Origin: a virus
Taxonomy: Duplodnaviria; Caudoviricetes
Strand: one strand, 5' to 3'
Virus record (IMG/VR): IMGVR_UViG_3300028886_000037
Span: 183,924 to 247,923 of that record
Length of the DNA stretch: 64,000 nt
Shown here one piece after another: positions 31,255 to 60,750 of the stretch. Position 1 is the first letter of the stretch; each line of letters starts with the position of its first letter. The notes beneath the pieces were generated by a model. It had not been told where the DNA came from and did no database searches. It was given only the letters and a program-made list of their open reading frames with translations. A program made the translations under genes and the position numbers.

Positions 31255-31343
31255 TGTCTCAATACTGTCTAAACACAAGAAAAACGAGACAAAAATGTCT
31301 CGATTCTTGTCTCGATTTTGTCTCTTAAAGCTCGATTTTCTCG
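31255..31343. repeat. clustered TGTCTC(GATT) direct/inverted repeats
   Basis: Copies at 31255, 31266 (partial), 31286 (inverted), 31296, 31308, 31319. Confidence 0.65.
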
Positions 31344-31834
31344 CAAATTACTCCATTTTGAAGCAGATACTCGATGCCTTTTCGATCATCATACTCCTCG
31401 ATGTAGTACACTTCCTTGATCCCAGAAGTGAGAATGAGCTTACAGCAGTTCAGACATGGACTGGTAGTCAGGTACAGCTGTGCTCCGGTGATGTCCGTGT
31501 TGTTCTTCAGTGCGAATCCCAAGCAGTTCATCTCTGCGTGAATCTCGTACTTGTCTGCGAACTCATGATGCTCTTTGCGGTACTCTTCCTCTGTCAAGAA
31601 CCTGGTCTGACGCGTGAGAGCGCTATTCCAAGTGATCTTGCCGTCAGGAGTTCTCTTGTAGATCTTGTTGCACTCAGTGCAGCCCTTAGCGACGCCGTTG
31701 TAGCCAGAGCTGAGAATTCTAGAATCCTTCACCAAGATCGCTGCGACTTGGAGTCTTGAGCATGTCGAGTACTTCTTTAGCGAGTTGAGCACGTCGACAT
31801 AGAAACGGTTGAATTTCTTTGGATTGTTACACAT
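31325..31834 (-). CDS. cd: dCMP deaminase
   Basis: STCSRLQV, GYNG, HAEMN, SPCLNC. Confidence 0.95.
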   Translation of the reverse strand: MCNNPKKFNRFYVDVLNSLKKYSTCSRLQVAAILVKDSRILSSGYNGVAKGCTECNKIYKRTPDGKITWNSALTRQTRFLTEEEYRKEHHEFADKYEIHAEMNCLGFALKNNTDITGAQLYLTTSPCLNCCKLILTSGIKEVYYIEEYDDRKGIEYLLQNGVICEKIEL

Positions 31835-35025: not shown

Positions 35026-35892
35026 TTACTCCTTTACAAACTTCACAACCTGGTCACGGACCGAGTCGTAGTATTTATCCCATACTTCGATGATGTGATT
35101 GATAGTCTTGTCGTCTGTCTTGTCCATCTTTATCTTTGTCGGATGCTCAGGAGAAGCACGGAAGATATTGTTGTAGCCTACGTTCGCTCTCGCCTCGAAG
35201 AAGTTAGCGTTACCAGTCGTAGCGACCCAGTCCTCCAAGATGTACTCGCCCCAACCGAGTGCTGTCTTGTTGCCTCTCGAGGTATTGGGAGTCATCATGC
35301 AGGTAGCGAACGTGAGAATCTTGTACTTCTTGTTGAAGCACATGTTCTTCAAGCCAGACTGTAGACAAGAGACTGGATCGTTAGCCCACATACCACCATC
35401 GCAGTAGGAGATTCCGTCTCGGTCGATCACGTCGAAGTAGCGAGGTGCAGCAGCGCTCGTAAGAACAGCGAACCACTTCTCTACCTTCGGATCACCAAGG
35501 TCCCATACCTTCTCACGAGACTTGCCGTTCATAGCAGTCGTAGGGATGAAGATCGGCTTTTTCCAGTTCATGATGTTGCCATCAAGATTCTTCTTGAGCA
35601 GATCCTTCAGAGTCGAGTTGTCGTAAGTCGGACACTTCGGCTCGATTCTCTTGTACCACGGGTACTTCGTGAAGATCTTCTTCAGGTTGTTCTTGTACAG
35701 ATTGAAGATGTCGTGAGCAGACATGCCCTCTGCTAGGCATGCTGCGATGATAGCGCCTGTTGAAGTTCCTGCGAAAGCGACGCTCTGATCTGTGAGCTTC
35801 TTTCCAAGATCTGATTCCAACCTGCACATGAACTGAAGCGGTCCGATGCCGAGTGCTCCGCCGCCAGAGATTGAGATTGCTAACTTAGCCAT
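35026..35892 (-). CDS. patatin-like phospholipase
   Basis: SGGGALG, GTSTG, SAAAP.YF, DGG; start MAKL. Confidence 0.9.
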   Translation of the reverse strand: MAKLAISISGGGALGIGPLQFMCRLESDLGKKLTDQSVAFAGTSTGAIIAACLAEGMSAHDIFNLYKNNLKKIFTKYPWYKRIEPKCPTYDNSTLKDLLKKNLDGNIMNWKKPIFIPTTAMNGKSREKVWDLGDPKVEKWFAVLTSAAAPRYFDVIDRDGISYCDGGMWANDPVSCLQSGLKNMCFNKKYKILTFATCMMTPNTSRGNKTALGWGEYILEDWVATTGNANFFEARANVGYNNIFRASPEHPTKIKMDKTDDKTINHIIEVWDKYYDSVRDQVVKFVKE

Positions 35893-36028
35893 TGTGTTCG
35901 TCCTCATCAAAAATCGAATCGACTATCCTGAACTGCTTGTCAGACTTCTTGACGCACTTCACTACACAAGCGACGAGAAGTCCCACGTACAAGACTGCTA
36001 TGCCTATGAGAATTCCCAATACGATCAT
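35885..36028 (-). CDS. 47-aa single-TM protein (holin/spanin-like candidate)
   Basis: Manual translation MIVLGILIGIAVLYVGLLVACVVKCVKK...; overlaps both neighbours. Confidence 0.6.
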   Translation of the reverse strand: MIVLGILIGIAVLYVGLLVACVVKCVKKSDKQFRIVDSIFDEDEHNG

Positions 36029-36558
36029 TTCAGCTCCTTGTAAGTCTTGCCGTTGTCCAAGCTCATCAAGAACTTGTTTCTCTTTACAGTGATGCCCTTC
36101 TTGAAGATCAGTTCAGGATCGTTGCCCAGATGGATCCACTCAGCGCCAGTAGCCGGGTTCTTCTCGTAGATTACCTGACCGAAGTTCACATCGTAGCTCA
36201 AGACGAGCTGCTTGATGTAGAGTGCAATCTGCTTAGTAGTCATCGAGCAGTTGTAGACCTGAATGTCTGCTGCACCCAGCGTAGGAGTCCCTTCGACCTG
36301 ATACCCGCAGAAGTGGTCAGAAGTCTTGCTCGGATTGTAGCCCTTCTTTACGAGACGATCATAGTCAGCTTTAGTTCTGACGCCTGACGTGATCAGGACA
36401 TAGACGGGCTTCATTCCCTCTTTGAACTCCTGAAGTCGATTTCTGACGATCTGTAGCTCACCCGCGAGAATCCTCAACAGATCAACCTGGTAGCTCGTCA
36501 ATTCACCCTTAGAAAACTCAGAAAGCTTAAAGTTATCGCTCAGTTTCTCATCTTTCAT
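36025..36558 (-). CDS. peptidase M15-family protein (candidate endolysin)
   Basis: LSDNFKLSEF, ITSGVR, SKTSDH, GAADI, WIHL; ATG 5 nt after late promoter. Confidence 0.8.
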   Translation of the reverse strand: MKDEKLSDNFKLSEFSKGELTSYQVDLLRILAGELQIVRNRLQEFKEGMKPVYVLITSGVRTKADYDRLVKKGYNPSKTSDHFCGYQVEGTPTLGAADIQVYNCSMTTKQIALYIKQLVLSYDVNFGQVIYEKNPATGAEWIHLGNDPELIFKKGITVKRNKFLMSLDNGKTYKELK

Positions 36559-36563
36559 ATTGA

Positions 36564-36571
36564 TATTTATA
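36564..36571 (-). promoter_or_regulatory. late promoter TATAAATA (leaderless transcript)
   Basis: Exact motif. Confidence 0.75.
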
Positions 36572-36574
36572 CAC

Positions 36575-36607
36575 AAAAAAAACGGCGCAGATTTGACCAT
36601 GCACCGT
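36575..36607 (-). terminator. intrinsic terminator
   Basis: ACGGTGCA/TGCGCCGT stem + U-tract. Confidence 0.75.
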
Positions 36608-36627: not shown

Positions 36628-37062
36628 TCATGTTAGACAGAGATAGAGAATAGTGCCTACGAACATGATGCCTAGCAGACCTGCAGTCCAGACCTTCTCT
36701 CTATTCTGATATAGCTCATATTGCCACTTCCAGTATTTGCGCTGCATCTCCGAGATCGAACGACGGAAAGACTCCTTGATCTGTTCCTTGTCATACTTGA
36801 TCTTCAAGCACAGCAGCGTGACAACGAGCGTAGTTGCGATAGTGTAGTTGAAATACTGAGGAATCTGCCAGTAGCCAGAGACCCAGTTAGTGTAGAAAAT
36901 GTAAGATGCGCTACACAGATTTCCGCCGAGAGACAAAAGAATAAAGAGCAGGCTGATGTCAGCCGTACTCTTTCTCTTCAATACTCTCAGAATTTGTGGG
37001 GCCGTGCATAGTGCAAAGCAGCCAGCTCCGATAAAACCAAGAACAGTGATAAATGCTGTCAT
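36628..37062 (-). CDS. PQ-loop (SemiSWEET-like) membrane protein
   Basis: APQILR..K.KST.DIS motif, 4 TM. Confidence 0.8.
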   Translation of the reverse strand: MTAFITVLGFIGAGCFALCTAPQILRVLKRKSTADISLLFILLSLGGNLCSASYIFYTNWVSGYWQIPQYFNYTIATTLVVTLLCLKIKYDKEQIKESFRRSISEMQRKYWKWQYELYQNREKVWTAGLLGIMFVGTILYLCLT

Positions 37063-37067
37063 ACGAT

Positions 37068-37712
37068 CTATTTATCGTCCTTCTTGTCCGGATCTTCAGC
37101 GAGTTCACGGAGATCAGATTGCACCTTCCAGTAACCGCACGGCTTGAACTCGGGACACTTGTGAAGATATTCACAGTTCTTGACCAAGACAGTTGCGAAC
37201 TCGGGGTTAGTGCTGAGTACAGCCATCTTGATCATCTCCATGATCTTTCTTGCGTTCGGTGAAGCCATGTTGCAGAGACGCTTTCTAGCCATGAACATCA
37301 GTTCAGCTGCGTTGATGACCATCACATGTGTGACATAGTGTCCCTGCGGTTCCTGATAGCGGTCATATTTGTCCTGCCTATCATTGCGCTGAGACTGAAC
37401 GTAATGCTCTACGCCAGTGTGATGACGGCAGAAGCATACAGAGTCGCAGTACGGAATATGCATACGGATGATGAACTGGAGGTATCGGATCGGCGAGTGT
37501 TCTGAAGTCAGATATCTGACTTTGAGCTCATCGCTGAGAGGCTTTCCGTCATCGAGAATGTAGTTCTTTCCGATCGTGTTGAGAGCAAGAAACTTGACCC
37601 ACTGCCAGTCCATCGAAGTGGGGTACTTCAGGACTTCAACGGTCATTCCGTAGATTCCCTCTTCCGTGCATACGCCGTGGAATTCGTTGTTGTTTACGAT
37701 TTGAATCGACAT
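37068..37712 (-). CDS. thyX: flavin-dependent thymidylate synthase
   Basis: EHSPIR, RHH....VQSQR, RLC..AS, C-terminal Cys cluster. Confidence 0.8.
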   Translation of the reverse strand: MSIQIVNNNEFHGVCTEEGIYGMTVEVLKYPTSMDWQWVKFLALNTIGKNYILDDGKPLSDELKVRYLTSEHSPIRYLQFIIRMHIPYCDSVCFCRHHTGVEHYVQSQRNDRQDKYDRYQEPQGHYVTHVMVINAAELMFMARKRLCNMASPNARKIMEMIKMAVLSTNPEFATVLVKNCEYLHKCPEFKPCGYWKVQSDLRELAEDPDKKDDK

Positions 37713-37714
37713 AC

Positions 37715-38164
37715 TTAGACTCCCGTGCTACCGAATCCGCCGCGATCCTTCTGATCTTCTAGCGTAGAATCTTCGAAGACGATCTTTGGCTGTTTCTTGA
37801 TGATGCGGAACTGACAGATGCGTTCACCCTTCTTGATGAGCGGACCCTTGAGTCCAGCACCAAGCTTGAAGGCCGGAAACTTCCACATGTCGTTAGGACC
37901 GCAGTAGCTGTTGTCTACGACGCCGACCGAGTTGGTCATGATGATTCCGTAGTTCTTGAAAGTAGAGGAGCGAGGAGCGATGTGCGCTTCATAGCCAGCG
38001 GGCAGCTTCATAGCGACGCCGAGTGGAATGAGACGGAATTCACCCATGCCCATGAAGACATCTTCCATAGCCTTCAAGTCGATCCAGTCTCCATTTTCGA
38101 TAGCTTCTGGTCTGCACGCTTCATCGAAGACCTTGAGTTGCACCATTTGAAGTTTGTCAGCCAT
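37715..38164 (-). CDS. dut: trimeric dUTPase
   Basis: GDWIDL, PRSS, GVVDNSY.G, ERICQ, RGGFGSTG. Confidence 0.95.
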   Translation of the reverse strand: MADKLQMVQLKVFDEACRPEAIENGDWIDLKAMEDVFMGMGEFRLIPLGVAMKLPAGYEAHIAPRSSTFKNYGIIMTNSVGVVDNSYCGPNDMWKFPAFKLGAGLKGPLIKKGERICQFRIIKKQPKIVFEDSTLEDQKDRGGFGSTGV

Positions 38165-55986: not shown

Positions 55987-56276
55987 ACGCACCATCCGCA
56001 AGGACCGAACGATAGAGCCTGAGAGATCTCGAAAGCGATGATCTTGTACTCATCTCCGTCAATTCCATACTTGGCCAATACCTCCGGAGTGGAGGCCTTG
56101 ACGTCTGCCTGCATGTTGCCACAGCCATATTCCGGCGCGTTACCTGAGTCGTGGTCATACTTGTCGACGAAGTCGTCCACGTCTATGTACTTGTGATTGA
56201 TATGGCTTGCGCTAGAGAGCGAACAGATCGCATCAAGTGGTTCGATCTTGTAGTCAAGCTGGTCGTGGAGATTCAT
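55983..56276 (-). CDS. conserved phage hypothetical protein (C-terminal CGWC)
   Basis: YGCGNM...LAKYGI...EY..I...LSFGPCGWC. Confidence 0.75.
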   Translation of the reverse strand: MNLHDQLDYKIEPLDAICSLSSASHINHKYIDVDDFVDKYDHDSGNAPEYGCGNMQADVKASTPEVLAKYGIDGDEYKIIAFEISQALSFGPCGWCV

Positions 56277-57220: not shown

Positions 57221-57249
57221 AATATAGGTAATTCTATGAGAAATCTAAA
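57221..57249 (-). promoter_or_regulatory. early promoter TTTAGA-17-TATATT
   Basis: Motif match. Confidence 0.7.
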
Positions 57250-57967
57250 CCTCATTTTCTGCTTTTTCTTTGGCTTTCGCTGCTTCTAGATAGGGTGCCA
57301 GAGGTCCTATTCCCATCTCGTCTCTCACTTTGTCTACACTTGCGCAGAACCTGATCCAGTTCTTGTACTTGCATGTCGGACGTGAGCCTCTGGTGTAAGC
57401 TGCTATCATAGACTGACCGAAGCGAGTCTCGCATATCTTCTCGGGCGTCCAGCCGTTCAGGAGGTACGTGTAGAGCGCATGAATGACCTTCGTCCGGATA
57501 TAGCCGATCTTGAACGTGATCTTAGACGGATTTAAGCCGAGTTCGCCCAGAAGATCGGAAATCATGACCAAGTCGAACTGAAGATTCCAAGGAATGACAG
57601 ACGCACGCAGCGTGATGGTGACTTCGTCGTTAGTCAAGTGCATAGCTGTGAGACATCCGCCCTGAATGTGGTCGAACTCGTGCTGGACGTTCTTGAAGCG
57701 GAAGTCGGAAGAACCAGTCTTGACGAGCTCAGCGTGGGAACGGTCAAGCTCGCCCTCCTCCACGTAGATTCCTCTAAGGTGTGTCATCTTGTTCAGATGA
57801 CGCTTAGCCATTCTGTCGATGTCGCCGCCCTTGCTGTAGTTTCTCGATGTGCATTCGATAGTGACATCCTCCTCTCTGGAAGTGTTGCACTTGAAGTTGT
57901 TCATGGCCCAAGTGGCCGTCTGCTCGAAAACGTCGTCAAAGTCAGTGCAGTTGAAATGTAAACTCAT
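57245..57967 (-). CDS. divergent thymidylate-synthase/dCMP-hydroxymethylase-fold protein (paralog A)
   Basis: GGCL...LRASVIPWNLQFDL: Cys, Arg and Asp at R+11. Confidence 0.55.
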   Translation of the reverse strand: MSLHFNCTDFDDVFEQTATWAMNNFKCNTSREEDVTIECTSRNYSKGGDIDRMAKRHLNKMTHLRGIYVEEGELDRSHAELVKTGSSDFRFKNVQHEFDHIQGGCLTAMHLTNDEVTITLRASVIPWNLQFDLVMISDLLGELGLNPSKITFKIGYIRTKVIHALYTYLLNGWTPEKICETRFGQSMIAAYTRGSRPTCKYKNWIRFCASVDKVRDEMGIGPLAPYLEAAKAKEKAENEV

Positions 57968-57969
57968 AT

Positions 57970-58620
57970 TTACTTTTGATCCTTTAGTTTCTCTTGAATC
58001 TTTCTCGCAATAGCCTTCATGCTATTGAATTTACATCTGTCCGTCAGAGCACGCTCGTAAGAAGTCCAGATCGATCTGCCGTAAGCTGTGTCCTGAATGT
58101 CTTCTCTGCTCATCCCGTATAGCACGAATGTGTAGAGATTGTGTACTGGCTTGGACGCCATGTAGCCGATCTTTATCGTGATCTGCTTCGGTGACAGACC
58201 GAGCTCATGGATCAGATCCGAGATCAATACCAAGTCGAACTGCAGGTTGTATGGTGCGATGGATGCTCGAATGTTGACGTTCACTTCGTCCTGCGTGTAC
58301 TCCATGCTAGTGAGACACGCGCCGTTGATGTGATTGTTCTTGCGATTCACTGAATTGAAGTTGAATGTTCCCTTTCCAGTCTTCATGTACTCGCGATGAG
58401 AACGATCTATCTCAGCTTCAGTCACGTATAGCTTACGCAGCTGATCCATCTTCTTTGGAAACGCTTTGATCACTTCTCGGATATACTGGCAGTCTGTCTT
58501 CTGAGCTGTAAGCGTTACGTCTTCCTCTTTAGCGAAGACAGAAGTGAAGTTGTCGAGTACGCACATCATCGTCTGACACAGCAGATCGTCGAAGGATATT
58601 CCCTTTATCTGTAAGCTCAT
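57970..58620 (-). CDS. divergent thymidylate-synthase/dCMP-hydroxymethylase-fold protein (paralog B)
   Basis: GACL...IRASIAPYNLQFDL; clear paralog of 57245-57967. Confidence 0.55.
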   Translation of the reverse strand: MSLQIKGISFDDLLCQTMMCVLDNFTSVFAKEEDVTLTAQKTDCQYIREVIKAFPKKMDQLRKLYVTEAEIDRSHREYMKTGKGTFNFNSVNRKNNHINGACLTSMEYTQDEVNVNIRASIAPYNLQFDLVLISDLIHELGLSPKQITIKIGYMASKPVHNLYTFVLYGMSREDIQDTAYGRSIWTSYERALTDRCKFNSMKAIARKIQEKLKDQK

Positions 58621-58621
58621 A

Positions 58622-59272
58622 TTACGTCCTCTTGTAGCCGAGAATGACCTCACGAGTTCTGTTCTTCCAGAATTCTTTGATGTGCTTAGGGAATTTCTCT
58701 GGTCCGTCGCGTTCGATTAGAAGCTCAGTTATGAGGGTCATAGCAGCGCCATAAGCGTCGATTACGTCACTTGCGCCGGGTTGTCCCTTCTTGCCATTAG
58801 TCACTGGAGGAAAGATGCTCAAATCTGGCTTTACGAGCGTAACTCGCTTGTAAGCGTCGAACATACCCTTCTTGTCTGAGTTTCCGTGACCCGAGAAAAC
58901 CTTCTTGATGGTCATCGGAGAATAGAGGTATAGAGGCTTACCCATGCGCCAGACCGACTGTCTGATCCAGCCTTCGAACTCAGCCAAGTCGAACACTAGG
59001 CCAGTCGCTCCAGCAGCGCCGAAAGCGTAGTCTTCTGCTGAGACATAGTCAGCGTCTTCGACAAACTTCAGGATTCGATCCTGCATGAACTTGTATTTGT
59101 CGTATTTGCTGTTCCAGTCGTCGTTAGAGTACCAGATAGACTTTTCGCTAGCATACTTCTTGGTAGTCGTGAACGTCAGCCAGTCCGCGTTCAGGATATT
59201 CAATCTCTCGTCCAGTTCCAGTTTCACAGCGCCCGTGTGGGTCACTGACATGTCCAGTCCCGCTATCTTCAT
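58622..59272 (-). CDS. RuvC-like Holliday junction resolvase
   Basis: IAGLDMS..TG, AEDYAFG, P.TIKK..SG.GNSDK, DVIDAY. Confidence 0.85.
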   Translation of the reverse strand: MKIAGLDMSVTHTGAVKLELDERLNILNADWLTFTTTKKYASEKSIWYSNDDWNSKYDKYKFMQDRILKFVEDADYVSAEDYAFGAAGATGLVFDLAEFEGWIRQSVWRMGKPLYLYSPMTIKKVFSGHGNSDKKGMFDAYKRVTLVKPDLSIFPPVTNGKKGQPGASDVIDAYGAAMTLITELLIERDGPEKFPKHIKEFWKNRTREVILGYKRT

Positions 59273-59585
59273 CTTGTAGTTCCTTCATCCTTCTCAGGAC
59301 GGATTCTAGTTTCTCTAATATAGTAAAATCTTCGCCTTTGGTGAGTTCCCACAGCCAATGCACTACGCGGTGAGTCGTCTCAGTCAGAAGCATAAAGTCT
59401 TCATCTTTCGTGAATTCTCCATACTTCTCTGCTGTCAGACGCATGTGATGACAAGTGAGTTTGTCGTCTCTAGTGAGCTGATGTCCAGTGAGTTCATCGA
59501 TTTTGCCTCTTGAGCTGATCAAACGTGTTTTTAACTCCCTCCACTGTCTCGTGTGGCGGAGTTTCTGCTTCCGTTTCTGATCCAT
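59148..59585 (-). CDS. HNH-like endonuclease
   Basis: W.EL...DELTG..L...CHH...Y....FMLL...H..VH; start uncertain. Confidence 0.6.
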   Translation of the reverse strand: MDQKRKQKLRHTRQWRELKTRLISSRGKIDELTGHQLTRDDKLTCHHMRLTAEKYGEFTKDEDFMLLTETTHRVVHWLWELTKGEDFTILEKLESVLRRMKELQDEDSGTGHVSDPHGRCETGTGREIEYPERGLADVHDYQEVC

Positions 59586-59667
59586 GTTCTTGTTAGAGTG
59601 CCGAAGTGACTTTTCTTCTAATTCTTTCTTGCGCCGAGTGACTCGCTTACGCTCACCCTTATGCTCG

Positions 59668-60750
59668 TCAGAATGTCCAAACTCCGTCGTCTTCGTCCGG
59701 AAATACCGTTTGTGGAACTTCAACTAGCTCCTCCCTCTTGTTCATATCGACTTTGAGGTTGTCCAAGTCGATCTCTGGCTGGAAGATCGCGTATACTGCC
59801 CAATATAGAGCAGATACGAGGTCGTCGTGTGAACCCGCTGTCGCTTTAAAGACATTCGGGCTAACTTCAATGAAAGTCGTCAATTCCTTGAGAGTAGCTG
59901 AGTCGTGAATGATCAGAGAGTCCCTGTTCACTTCTCGCTGGAGCATCAGACACGCGTCGAGCTTAGAAGCCTTGTTGGCGTTTGTACCGATTCCGTGCGG
60001 GTCTGTGTTGATGATGTTCTGGCAATCCAGTGTGTACCATAGCTCCTCGGCGACTTGCTTACCTGGGCCGTTGTTCTCGATGATGATTAGAGCGTCGTTG
60101 TACCACTCGCTCAGATCCTTGATGATCTGACTGAACTTGCCGCCTAGTGTTCTATCGTCGTGGAAGGTGCATACCTGTTCGAATTTGTCCTTGCTGACGA
60201 GTTTTAGAACTTGCACTGCCGAGAAGTCGAGACCAGAGCCAGTCGCCGTGTCCACTCCCATCACGTACATAGCGCCAGGAATCGGCTCTTCCCAGATCGA
60301 GACGAGGTAGCCGTACTTGAATTCCTTTGGCTCTGTCGGGAACAGCTTAGCGAGCTTATCGAGTTCGATGAGAGTCGTCGAAGATCCCATGAACTCACAG
60401 TTGTGGTGCATCTGGACTTTCTCGCCGTTCTCGTCCACTGTGCTGTACTCATGGCCTCTCACCGAGTAAGGACCATAGAACGTGTCAGTGACTTCCTCTA
60501 TGTCGACGATGGTAGAGCCAGCGATAGAGTCTCCGACAGAAAGTGACTCGACATACACTTCCCAGCCATCGATCATGAACCTGTGGCCGTCAGAGTATTT
60601 GAGCTCTCGGCCGTCTTCAAGCTTCAATTTGTACCCGTGGCTCTTCTTCTCGATTAGTCCCCAGAACGGCTCAAAAGTGCCGTTCTCGGACATAATCTCT
60701 AGACCAGAGTTGTTCTTAACGATTGAAATTGATCTCTTTTCTTCTGCCAT
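59668..60750 (-). CDS. gp17: terminase large subunit C-terminal (nuclease) half fused to the C-part of a split intein
   Basis: CEFMGSSTTLI, YVMGVDTATGSGLDFS, IIENN, HDDLVSAL; no ATPase domain; late-like CATAAATA at 60789-60796. Confidence 0.9.
   Translation of the reverse strand: MAEEKRSISIVKNNSGLEIMSENGTFEPFWGLIEKKSHGYKLKLEDGRELKYSDGHRFMIDGWEVYVESLSVGDSIAGSTIVDIEEVTDTFYGPYSVRGHEYSTVDENGEKVQMHHNCEFMGSSTTLIELDKLAKLFPTEPKEFKYGYLVSIWEEPIPGAMYVMGVDTATGSGLDFSAVQVLKLVSKDKFEQVCTFHDDRTLGGKFSQIIKDLSEWYNDALIIIENNGPGKQVAEELWYTLDCQNIINTDPHGIGTNANKASKLDACLMLQREVNRDSLIIHDSATLKELTTFIEVSPNVFKATAGSHDDLVSALYWAVYAIFQPEIDLDNLKVDMNKREELVEVPQTVFPDEDDGVWTF
60400..60750 (-). mobile_element. atypically split intein, C-fragment (117 aa)
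   Basis: Block B SDGHRF, L.VGD, terminal HHN followed by Cys+1; no Cys1/block A. Confidence 0.85.

What the first reader, a model, noticed from the sequence alone, without database searches (positions are those of the whole stretch)
57245..58620. Tandem divergent thymidylate-synthase-fold paralogs with the cytosine-specifying Asp: candidate new base-modification system
Seen: two adjacent paralogs with G(G/A)CL...RAS..P(W/Y)NLQFDL. Known: in ThyA the catalytic Cys is followed by RSxD and an Asn 11 residues after the Arg; dCMP hydroxymethylases (T4 gp42) have Asp there. Both proteins have Asp at exactly R+11 but replace RSxD with RASV/I and lack the HxY motif. The phage already has ThyX for dTMP. 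Inference: a possibly heterodimeric enzyme making a modified cytosine nucleotide, perhaps with a non-folate donor. GATC/TCGA/AGCT sites look abundant by eye, consistent with protected DNA, but I did not count them.
Basis: partly seen in the sequence, partly recalled or inferred. Interest (0 to 1): 0.75.

Follow-up and report, generated by a model that had tools for sequence, protein, structure and literature searches.

The report
Divergent thymidylate-synthase-fold phage enzyme pair
Two neighbouring genes of a 248-kb rumen phage encode stripped-down, unannotated relatives of thymidylate synthase that keep the reactive cysteine and the cytosine-selecting aspartate. They belong to a widespread, unstudied phage protein family that nearly always travels with the genes for replacing cytosine in viral DNA, so they probably carry out an unknown step in making a modified DNA base.

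Summary

Cys105, Arg121 and Asp132 align with TS Cys146, Arg166 and Asn177. With Tyr68, they are conserved in 86-87 of 87 family members that are only 12-22% identical. The folate residue Asp169 and the HxY motif are absent.

The family includes phrog_34294, phrog_13667, Clostridium phage Clo-PEP-1 gp2 and Mycobacterium phage Muddy gp47. In 66 of 80 phage loci it lies within 6 kb of an Asp-type canonical TS homolog, mostly directly upstream, usually beside an NTP pyrophosphatase and often a dNMP kinase. This phage carries that trio 84 kb away.

The duplication is not conserved: most relatives have one copy, so an obligate heterodimer is unlikely. Both copies are under purifying selection.

Best reading: these are active, folate-independent enzymes in the cytosine-replacement pathway, directed at cytosine nucleotides. 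The chemistry is unknown. The scan flagged this family earlier in other genomes.

The parts
57245..57967 (-). Paralog A (P0001, 240 aa). TS-fold protein and the core copy of the family in this phage lineage; it is the copy present in every relative.
57970..58620 (-). Paralog B (P0002, 216 aa). TS-fold protein and an accessory copy found only in the closest relatives.
57653..57655 (-). Codon of Cys105 in paralog A, the putative catalytic nucleophile (equivalent to ThyA Cys146).
   Evidence: TGT read directly from the sequence. Conserved in 87 of 87 family members. Aligned to the PC motif of canonical TS homologs by hhalign. It sits just before beta-strand 106-112.
57605..57607 (-). Codon of Arg121 in paralog A (equivalent to ThyA Arg166).
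   Evidence: CGT. Conserved in 86 of 87 members, the other being Lys. Aligned to the RS motif of TS homologs.
57572..57574 (-). Codon of Asp132 in paralog A (position of ThyA Asn177 and T4 gp42 Asp179, the pyrimidine-specificity residue).
   Evidence: GAC. Conserved in 87 of 87 members. R+11 spacing as in ThyA and AfhB. Aligned to the conserved Asp (the N177-equivalent position) of Asp-type TS homologs.
57764..57766 (-). Codon of Tyr68 in paralog A. It is universally conserved and a candidate general acid/base. Its equivalence to ThyA Tyr94 is not established.
   Evidence: Conserved in 87 of 87 members. The hhalign alignment is of low confidence in this region.
58315..58317 (-). Codon of Cys102 in paralog B, the counterpart of Cys105 in A.
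   Evidence: TGT. Invariant column in A4.
58622..59272 (-). RuvC-like Holliday-junction resolvase gene immediately upstream and translationally coupled. It is a conserved neighbour only within the jumbo-phage lineage.
   Evidence: phrog_159, E 3e-26. The block TerL_C-HNH-RuvC-TS-like is conserved in L003-L011. No homolog occurs in the small-phage modules.
31325..31834 (-). dCMP deaminase, part of the phage's ordinary route to dUMP/dTMP.
   Evidence: PF00383, 72 bits. phrog_174, E 2e-45.
37715..38164 (-). Trimeric-type dUTPase.
   Evidence: PF00692, E 4e-11. phrog_135, E 4e-32.
37068..37712 (-). Candidate divergent ThyX (214 aa). The assignment is weak.
   Evidence: Pfam Thy1 19.5 bits, below the 24.8 cut-off. 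No PHROG or PDB sequence hit. RHH...QSQR motif present.

Best explanation
Both genes encode catalytically competent members of an unnamed, very divergent branch of the thymidylate synthase / dCMP hydroxymethylase superfamily.

Inferred mechanism, by analogy with TS chemistry: the protein binds a cytosine (deoxy)nucleotide. Asp132 reads and protonates the N3/N4 edge, Arg121 holds the phosphate, and Cys105 attacks C6 to activate C5. The one-carbon/folate site is gone.

The family almost always accompanies an Asp-type canonical TS homolog, usually with an NTP pyrophosphatase and often a Tmk-like kinase. That is the gene set phages use to replace a canonical pyrimidine before replication. The enzyme therefore most likely performs an extra step in that pathway.

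My preferred version (about 30%) is that it acts on the 5-substituted dCMP made by the neighbouring TS homolog, for example by re-forming the exocyclic methylene intermediate and exchanging the substituent.

Shown: the fold, the conserved residues, the gene association and purifying selection. Inferred: the substrate, the chemistry and the product.

Paralog A is the core enzyme of this phage lineage. Paralog B is an older, dispensable duplicate that also keeps all key residues. TS-family enzymes are dimers, so A and B may form homodimers, heterodimers or both. A heterodimer is not required.
For: Fold:
- Two high-confidence AF2 models match TS-family chains only.

Residues:
- In an 87-sequence family alignment whose non-jumbo members are 12-22% identical to P0001, Tyr68, Cys105 and Asp132 are 87/87, Arg121 is 86/87 and Lys/Arg60 is 87/87.
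- hhalign of this family against 72 canonical Asp-type TS homologs (E 1e-4, probability 58%) places Cys105 on the PC Cys, Arg121 on the RS Arg and Asp132 on the conserved Asp at the N177-equivalent position.
- Strand-strand-helix context and R+11 spacing match ThyA and AfhB.

Family:
- hhalign of the narrow family against 65 TS-adjacent ORFs gives probability 99.2%, E 1.5e-19.
- Those ORFs belong to phrog_34294 and phrog_13667, both of unknown function.

Association:
- 66 of 80 IMG/VR loci holding an Asp-type TS homolog have a family member within 6 kb, mostly ending at the TS start codon.
- Conserved clusters: TS in 66 loci, NTP-PPase in 61, TS-like in 61, kinase in 43.
- The same order occurs in Muddy (gp49 kinase, gp48 dUTPase, gp47, gp46 TS), Curtobacterium phage Shrew and Clo-PEP-1 (gp4-gp1).
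- All three complete genomes that hold the family also hold the Asp-type TS.
- This genome has the NTP-PPase/kinase/TS trio at G000:C1:155564-157563.

Selection: dN/dS is 0.07-0.15 for both paralogs against close relatives.
Against: - No sequence-profile method places P0001 or P0002 in PF00303, and hhalign with the narrow profiles finds nothing. Homology to TS rests on structure plus one modest profile-profile hit.
- Three of the four phosphate-binding arginines of TS (R21, R126', R127') have no clearly conserved counterpart. Ser167, Asp169 and H207-x-Y209 are also missing, so binding of a mononucleotide is not assured.
- I could not superpose coordinates, so the geometry of the putative active site is unmeasured.
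- In this phage lineage the genes sit with the resolvase and terminase genes, 84 kb from the nucleotide module.
- The family is basic (median pI 8.95, against 5.0-6.9 for the TS homologs). That would also fit a nucleic-acid substrate or a protein partner.
- The family evolves much faster than the TS homolog (56% against 94% identity between the same two genomes).
- No experiment on any member was found in the literature searched.
Confidence: 0.5

Rival explanations
1. One reading: an autonomous, obligately heterodimeric (A+B) enzyme that converts dCMP directly into a new C5-modified dCMP using a non-folate donor, for example flavin/O2 as in AfhB.
For: The best structural matches are the flavin-dependent dCMP 5-hydroxylases 9iqc/9iqu. 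Asp is at the specificity position and Asp169 is missing. Both copies keep every key residue and are under purifying selection. Tandem or flanking pairs recur in other phage groups: L033, L037, L048, L097, L031, L045, L068.
Against: Most relatives have one copy, so the heterodimer is not obligatory. The D169N residue diagnostic of 5-hydroxy-dCMP synthases (PMC13326640) is V/I here and variable across the family. An autonomous dCMP modifier would compete with the co-occurring Asp-type TS homolog for the same substrate, which makes their near-universal pairing hard to explain.
Confidence: 0.17
2. Covalent-catalysis deaminase. Cys attack at C6 saturates the 5,6 bond and promotes hydrolytic loss of N4, converting the TS homolog's product (5-methyl- or 5-hydroxymethyl-dCMP) into dTMP or 5-hydroxymethyl-dUMP. 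The four-gene module would then be an alternative thymidine-type nucleotide pathway rather than a cytosine modification.
For: The enzyme needs no external carbon donor, matching the lost folate site. Module kinases are Tmk-like (phrog_761, Pfam Thymidylate_kin) and the NTPase is dUTPase_2-like. Established chemistry: DNA C5-methyltransferases deaminate cytosine this way without SAM (my own knowledge). Phage deaminases that prefer 5mC nucleotides exist (abstract of bioRxiv 10.1101/2024.12.05.627091, listed).
Against: This phage and 21 of 74 module loci also carry a zinc dCMP deaminase. This phage also has a dUTPase and a ThyX-like gene for dTMP. No direct evidence.
Confidence: 0.13
3. The enzyme works on polynucleotide rather than on free nucleotide, modifying cytosine or 5-substituted cytosine in replicated phage DNA before packaging. 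This would be a TS-fold counterpart of DNA C5-methyltransferases.
For: The family is basic (median pI 8.95) with a basic C-terminal helical extension absent from TS. Most phosphate-clamp arginines of TS are missing. In the jumbo lineage the genes are co-transcribed with the resolvase, next to the terminase.
Against: No TS-fold enzyme is known to act on DNA (my own knowledge). In most phages the gene lies among mononucleotide enzymes. The jumbo-lineage neighbours are not shared with the other phages.
Confidence: 0.1
4. Non-catalytic TS-fold protein: a nucleotide sensor, a scaffold of the dNTP-synthesising complex, or a partner or inhibitory subunit that pairs with the acidic Asp-type TS homolog or with the host ThyA.
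For: Opposite charge to the TS homolog. Start/stop-adjacent genes in most loci. Fast sequence evolution and a mosaic A allele (dS 1.30 for A against 0.32 for the flanking RuvC gene in the same genome pair).
Against: Absolute conservation of Cys, Asp and Tyr and near-absolute conservation of Arg across members only 12-22% identical is typical of catalysis, not of a scaffold. In jumbo phages the gene is 84 kb from the TS homolog and diverges independently of it.
Confidence: 0.1

Closest known systems
Flavin-dependent 5-hydroxy-dCMP synthases: phage HY126 AfhB (PDB 9iqu, 9iqc), RB69 gp48, DLP3 gp80 (PMC13326640)
   Different: Only 11-13% identity and no sequence-profile match, whereas the phage's canonical TS homolog family hits 9iqc at E 2e-19. 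The diagnostic D169N is V/I here. The hairpin between Cys and Arg is 4 residues shorter. There is no SRR motif. A different, basic C-terminal helical extension is present.
T4 gp42 dCMP hydroxymethylase (PDB 1b5d, 6a9a), working with gp56 dCTPase and gp1 dNMP kinase
   Different: gp42 is a PF00303 member with folate-binding residues. In this phage that role fits the separate 229-aa TS homolog at G000:C1:156874-157563 (RSCD...ND). The pair studied here is an additional, folate-site-less protein with no T4 counterpart.
Thymidylate synthase ThyA (EC 2.1.1.45, Pfam PF00303)
   Different: No PF00303 match at E up to 10. Asp instead of Asn177. Ser167, Asp169, His207-x-Tyr209 and the Arg126'/127' pair are not conserved. 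About 40-50 residues of TS insertions are absent.
phrog_34294 and phrog_13667 (unknown function): Clostridium phage Clo-PEP-1 gp2, CPD4, CP3; Mycobacterium phage Muddy gp47; 68 Gordonia phages; Curtobacterium phage Shrew gp74. Pseudomonas phage PMBT14 A0A2I6PI74 is a structural match only; its PHROG membership was not tested here.
   Same: Homologous by profile-profile comparison (hhalign 99.2%, E 1.5e-19; 86.6% to gp2 alone). Same invariant Tyr, Cys, Arg and Asp. Closest BFVD structures are uncharacterised phage proteins including PMBT14's (TM 0.62-0.66).
   Different: P0001 and P0002 do not reach these PHROG models directly and are only 12-22% identical to their members. Those members sit directly upstream of the Asp-type TS gene, whereas the jumbo-phage genes have moved next to the resolvase and terminase genes.
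MilA CMP 5-hydroxymethylase (PDB 5jnh, 5b6e)
   Different: MilA is folate-dependent, a PF00303 member and about 320 aa. It acts on a ribonucleotide in antibiotic biosynthesis.

Membership tests
TS / dCMP hydroxymethylase superfamily (structural level) | TS alpha/beta fold with the central sheet, and the catalytic Cys at the start of a strand followed by a hairpin and helix J | tested here: met
TS / dCMP hydroxymethylase superfamily (structural level) | Nucleophilic Cys (ThyA C146) | tested here: met
   Cys105/Cys102 is 87/87 in the family and is aligned to the PC motif by hhalign.
TS / dCMP hydroxymethylase superfamily (structural level) | Phosphate-binding Arg of the RS motif (ThyA R166) | tested here: met
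   Arg121 is 86/87 and is aligned to RS. The following Ser is displaced (RAS) and is not conserved in the wider family.
TS / dCMP hydroxymethylase superfamily (structural level) | Specificity residue 11 residues after the Arg (Asn for uracil, Asp for cytosine) | tested here: met
   Asp132 is 87/87. The spacing was checked against ThyA and AfhB sequences and the residue is aligned. The reading 'cytosine' follows from Hardy & Nalivaika 1992 and Graves et al. 1992, as cited in PMC8670742 and PMC13326640.
TS / dCMP hydroxymethylase superfamily (structural level) | Obligate homodimer with Arg126'/Arg127' donated across the interface | not testable with these tools
   No conserved Arg-Arg pair precedes the equivalent strand. 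The oligomeric state could not be established here.
Pfam PF00303 Thymidylat_synt (sequence family) | Match to the Pfam model above the gathering score (24.3 bits) | tested here: not met
   No PF00303 hit even at E up to 10 for either protein, or for the distant members P0029-P0031. The phage's other TS homolog scores 55 bits.
Folate-dependent TS / hydroxymethylases | Asp169 (RSxD) contacting the pterin, and the His207-x-Tyr209 motif | tested here: not met
   RASV/RASI here; RVCE, RTGY, RTSY and RVSY in other members. H163 is conserved only in the narrow family, as HxxY.
5-hydroxy-dCMP synthases (AfhB, RB69 gp48) | D169N substitution, proposed as diagnostic in PMC13326640 | tested here: not met
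   The position holds V/I (or E/Y in relatives), never a conserved Asn. AfhB has RSQN.
5-hydroxy-dCMP synthases (AfhB, RB69 gp48) | Bound flavin cofactor | not testable with these tools
TS-adjacent unknown family (phrog_34294 / phrog_13667) | Homology to the family profile | tested here: met
   Direct hmmscan finds no hit at E up to 1. However, the A2 HMM finds members at E down to 4e-9, hhalign gives 99.2%, and hhalign to Clo-PEP-1 gp2 gives 86.6%.
TS-adjacent unknown family (phrog_34294 / phrog_13667) | Gene lies directly upstream of an Asp-type TS homolog within a kinase / NTP-PPase / TS module | tested here: not met
   In this genome the pair lies about 84 kb from the module (window start = G000:C1:183924; module at 155564-157563). 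Co-occurrence within the genome does hold.

The most novel reading that the evidence does not exclude
A widespread, folate-independent TS-fold enzyme family carries out a so-far-unknown second chemical step on 5-substituted dCMP, or on cytosines already in DNA. If so, many phages make an undescribed DNA base. These would include this rumen jumbo phage, Clostridium perfringens phages, dozens of Gordonia phages and the therapeutic mycobacteriophage Muddy. Recurrent duplication of the gene, as in the A/B pair here, would diversify that chemistry or create heterodimeric enzymes.
Probability: 0.3. Interest if true: 0.88.

Novelty: new variant of a known kind. Interest (0 to 1): 0.7.

Why it matters
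Every known pre-replicative pyrimidine modification in phages starts with a recognisable thymidylate synthase homolog. Here a second TS-fold family, invisible to Pfam and annotated everywhere as 'hypothetical protein', is about as tightly linked to the Asp-type TS homolog as the NTP pyrophosphatase is, and more often present than the kinase.

If it is an enzyme, the textbook three-enzyme scheme (NTPase, TS homolog, kinase) is incomplete for a large group of phages. A new nucleotide chemistry on the TS scaffold would then await discovery, as happened recently with the flavin-dependent 5-hydroxy-dCMP synthases.

Members occur in cultivable phages, including the therapeutic phage Muddy and Clostridium perfringens phages, so the question can be tested directly. 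The answer bears on how these phages evade restriction and CRISPR, and on sequencing and engineering of their DNA.

Tried and rejected
- **Pfam, PHROGs:** neither library gives a significant hit for either protein.
- **PDB profile search with A1:** only chance-level diphthine synthase matches, E 0.35.
- **GenBank phage collection:** blastn and tblastn with the locus, P0001 or the 282-aa distant member found no match.
- **hhalign of the narrow family:** no match to the phage's own TS homolog (A1 vs P0026) or to its family (A2 vs A3). Only the 87-sequence profile gave a modest hit.
- **ESM Atlas:** best scores 0.85-0.86. One cluster has PF00303 in 23% of members. This is a lead only.
- **Complex prediction of A with B:** the job returned 'no answer', with scores under the mark and controls not run. 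It says nothing either way.
- **Fused or longer forms:** a search with a 30-sequence family alignment found none among proteins of 591-2000 aa. This is weak evidence.
- **The look-up of encoding contigs:** Context came from the search for related loci instead.
- **Jumbo-lineage neighbours as part of the module:** the 108-aa and 146-aa ORFs, RuvC and the o117 family have no homologs in the 80 small-phage loci. Rejected.
- **T4 beta-glucosyltransferase (PF09198) and GT2 (PF00535):** neither was found in the genome. PF09198 also rang in no control genome, so that search is uninformative.
- **Palindrome abundance as evidence of protected DNA:** rejected after counting.
- **Model coordinates:** they are not exposed to the script box. 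Active-site distances and a superposition on dCMP-bound AfhB could not be computed.
Full report
**Observation.** The window is bases 183924-247923 of a 247,923-bp virus record judged 98% complete. Earlier notes of this scan describe it as a T4-like rumen phage.

Two minus-strand ORFs lie at the reported place: 57245-57967 (240 aa, P0001, 'A') and 57970-58620 (216 aa from its ATG, P0002, 'B'). B starts 1 nt after the stop codon of a RuvC-like resolvase gene and A starts 2 nt after the stop of B, each behind a Shine-Dalgarno-like AAGGA/AAGAGGA. The three genes therefore look co-transcribed and translationally coupled.

A and B are 42% identical over 218 residues (E 1e-60).

**Fold.** Neither protein matches any Pfam or PHROG model, and a profile of 20 homologs finds nothing in the PDB by sequence.

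AlphaFold2 models are confident: A has pLDDT 92.2 and pTM 0.88; B has pLDDT 91.6 and pTM 0.89.
- Foldseek against the PDB returns thymidylate-synthase-family chains only. The best are the phage HY126 flavin-dependent dCMP hydroxylase AfhB (9iqu/9iqc), T4 dCMP hydroxymethylase and MilA.

The TS fold is therefore real for both paralogs. Residues of A after about 160-175 form a basic helical extension with no specific match.

**Residue equivalence.** I could not read model coordinates, so equivalence rests on three indirect lines.
1. Context. Cys105 sits just before strand 106-112. Arg121 sits near the end of the next strand (115-124). Asp132 is in the first turns of helix 127-142. This mirrors Cys146, Arg166 and Asn177 (helix J) of ThyA.
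2. Spacing. Asp is at R+11, as is Asn in ThyA (RSADIFLGVPFN) and Asp in AfhB (RSQNCAVVMQLD). The Cys-to-Arg hairpin is four residues shorter.
3. Profile-profile alignment. An 87-sequence profile of the family, aligned by hhalign to 72 canonical Asp-type TS homologs (E 1e-4, probability 58%), puts G-x-C-L on P-C, R-A-S on R-S, and D-L on the conserved Asp at the N177-equivalent position.

Narrow profiles gave no signal, so sequence-level homology is at the edge of detection.

Missing relative to TS are Asp169 (V/I here, variable elsewhere), Ser167 in register, His207-x-Tyr209, and a conserved Arg126'/Arg127' pair.

**The family.** Sequence searches find 23 close relatives, all unannotated and on contigs up to 262 kb. 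A full HMMER scan of 1.8 billion representatives finds only a handful of distant ones.

Three results link the pair to a larger family.
- The family HMM detects ORFs of about 245-320 aa in many other phage contigs.
- After three rounds the set is stable at 78 ORFs.
- A direct profile-profile test of the narrow family against 65 of those ORFs gives 99.2% probability, E 1.5e-19, over 207 columns.

These ORFs belong to phrog_34294 and phrog_13667, both 'unknown function'. Cultured members, all annotated as hypothetical (one record mislabels it a colanic acid glycosyltransferase), include:
- Clostridium perfringens phages Clo-PEP-1 (gp2), CPD4 and CP3;
- 68 Gordonia phages;
- Mycobacterium phages Muddy (gp47) and FF47;
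- Streptomyces, Microbacterium and Curtobacterium phages.

The best BFVD structures are likewise uncharacterised phage proteins, one from Pseudomonas phage PMBT14 (TM 0.62-0.66), ahead of annotated TS and gp42 proteins.

In the 87-sequence alignment the non-jumbo members are only 12-22% identical to A. Even so, Tyr68, Cys105 and Asp132 are invariant (87/87), Arg121 is 86/87 and position 60 is always Lys or Arg. That pattern is what one expects of catalytic residues.

**Gene association.** I scanned IMG/VR for relatives of the phage's canonical TS homolog and kept 80 loci.
- 66 of the 80 carry a TS-like ORF within 6 kb.
- Six of the 14 without one (L021-L026) belong to the jumbo-type group, most similar to this phage's TS homolog. 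In this lineage (this genome, and L007/L022) the TS-like gene lies elsewhere in the genome.
- In most of the 66 the ORF ends at or a few bases from the TS start codon.
- Clustering the genes of 74 loci gives TS in 66, an all-alpha NTP pyrophosphatase (dUTPase_2 / phrog_12184) in 61, the TS-like family in 61 (68 genes), a Tmk-like kinase in 43 and a zinc dCMP deaminase in 21.
- The order kinase, NTPase, TS-like, TS is found in Muddy (gp49-gp46), and in Shrew and Clo-PEP-1.

The accompanying TS homolog is always of the Asp type: invariant P-C, R-S-x-D, H, then Asp at R+11. It is a clear PF00303 member whose best PDB match by sequence is AfhB (E 2e-19). It keeps Asp169, so by the criterion of PMC13326640 it is not a 5-hydroxy-dCMP synthase.

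**This genome.** The trio lies outside the window at G000:C1:155564-157563: NTP pyrophosphatase (208 aa), kinase (184 aa) and Asp-type TS homolog (229 aa, CPC...RSCD...ND). An earlier first-stage note of this scan made the same reading.

All three complete genomes holding the TS-like family also hold this TS homolog.

Inside the window are a dCMP deaminase (31325-31834), a dUTPase (37715-38164) and a weak ThyX candidate (37068-37712).

I found no T4-type beta-glucosyltransferase or GT2 domain. Other notes mention glycosyltransferases elsewhere in the genome; I did not verify them.

**Duplication.** Only the closest relatives (L003, L005/L006) have both A and B. L004 (80% identical to A), L007 and L008-L011 have a single A-type gene after the resolvase.

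In a quick maximum-likelihood tree the B clade is sister to the whole A clade, which includes all single-copy genomes (SH-aLRT 89 and 97; the careful search did not finish). B is thus an older or fast-evolving duplicate that has been lost repeatedly, or gained once by a sub-lineage.

Both copies are under purifying selection (dN/dS 0.07-0.15 against close relatives) and keep all key residues.

Pairs of family members also occur in other phage groups, either in tandem upstream of TS (L033, L037, L048, L097) or flanking it (L031, L045, L068). They fall in several separate clades. Duplication is therefore a recurrent habit of the family, but a heterodimer cannot be obligatory.

**Mechanism.**
- Shown: the fold, a TS-like set of invariant residues, loss of the folate site, purifying selection, and tight linkage to the Asp-type TS / NTPase / kinase module.
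- Inferred: the protein binds a cytosine nucleotide and uses Cys-C6 covalent catalysis.

It nearly always accompanies a complete, apparently functional folate-type dCMP enzyme. I therefore think a sequential role is the most economical reading: it acts on that enzyme's 5-substituted dCMP, for example by regenerating the exocyclic methylene and exchanging the substituent. I put this at about 30%, within a 50% confidence that it is an active cytosine-nucleotide enzyme of this pathway.

Rivals are:
- a covalent-catalysis deaminase that would turn the module into a thymidine-type pathway;
- a DNA-level modifier;
- a non-catalytic partner.

Three observations keep the last two alive. The family is basic (median pI 8.95, against 5.0-6.9 for the TS homologs). 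Most phosphate-clamp arginines are lost. In the jumbo lineage the genes sit with the resolvase and terminase.

**Palindromes.** GATC (2273), TCGA (2217) and AGCT (1687) are 1.8-2.4 times the mononucleotide expectation in the genome. Given their trinucleotides they are 1.12, 1.03 and 1.00 times expectation. Their abundance therefore reflects oligonucleotide and codon usage.

Some 6-bp palindromes are strongly avoided: CATATG 0 against 42 expected, AATATT 3 against 56, CCATGG 2 against 28. Restriction pressure is thus still visible.

**Novelty and prior work.** Full-text searches found the recent work on TS-fold 5-hydroxy-dCMP synthases (PMC13326640) and the MetaGPA study linking TS homologs to cytosine modification (PMC8670742). 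They found nothing on this family or on Muddy gp47.

This scan has flagged the same family before on other DNA (e1-5768753 and e1-5768758 in a sheep-gut giant phage, and several first-stage notes), with similar conclusions. I re-derived the phrog_34294 link and the AfhB similarity independently here.

**Limits.**
- There is no experimental evidence for any member.
- The complex prediction gave no verdict.
- The 80 TS loci were selected with patterns that include the Asp-type motif, so the association is measured only for Asp-type TS homologs.

Noticed in passing
window 54560-54830 (within an ORF-poor stretch of about 54457-55040): A cluster of short A5T4-5 palindromic repeats (AAAAATTTTKS). 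All 7 matches in the 64-kb window fall here, against 0.06 expected. TRF reports periods of 12-14 nt. This may be a protein-binding array, origin or regulatory region.
   Followed up: partly
window 59148-60750: The terminase large-subunit nuclease domain (PF17289) is encoded by a 360-aa ORF (59668-60750). Its N-terminal part gives a weak intein-splicing match (PF14890). The ORF overlaps an HNH endonuclease ORF (59148-59723), so the terminase looks split or intein-bearing. The arrangement is conserved in L003-L011.
   Followed up: partly
window 57245-57967 compared with L005:8001-8720: The A gene is mosaic. Synonymous divergence from L005 is 1.30, while the flanking RuvC gene (0.32) and the B gene (0.46) of the same genome pair are far closer. 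This suggests allelic replacement of A by recombination among related phages.
   Followed up: partly
whole genome (G000): Several 6-bp palindromes are almost absent: CATATG 0 of 42 expected, AATATT 3 of 56, CCATGG 2 of 28, ATTAAT 1 of 8.5. CGCG and CCGG are at about 0.6 of Markov expectation. This points to restriction avoidance despite the presumed cytosine modification.
   Followed up: partly
G000:C1:156874-157563 (outside the window; L001:1489-2178) and its family (alignment A3): The canonical Asp-type TS homolog family has an invariant Arg three residues before the catalytic Cys (R-x-P-C). ThyA has Leu143 at this position and hydroxymethylases have Asp/Glu. It also has R-Q instead of the R126-R127 pair. 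Its product (methyl, hydroxymethyl or other) is therefore not predictable from known rules.
   Followed up: partly
window 55391-56001, and L003:9962-12855, L005, L007: A family of small paralogous genes (about 85-145 aa, related to the 117-aa ORF at 55648-56001) is repeated 5-8 times in tandem downstream of the TS-like genes in related phages. No family match was found.
   Followed up: no
window 35026-35910 and 36628-37062: A patatin-like phospholipase (PF01734, E 2e-18) and a PQ-loop membrane protein (PF04193, E 1e-12) lie near a gene with endolysin-family PHROG matches (36025-36600) and next to the ThyX-like gene. These are unusual phage cargo, possibly lysis-related.
   Followed up: no
L033, L037, L048, L097 (tandem) and L031, L045, L068 (flanking the TS gene): Independent pairs of TS-like paralogs occur in unrelated phages of about 45-77 kb. 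All copies keep Cys, Arg and Asp. Duplication of this gene is recurrent across the family.
   Followed up: partly
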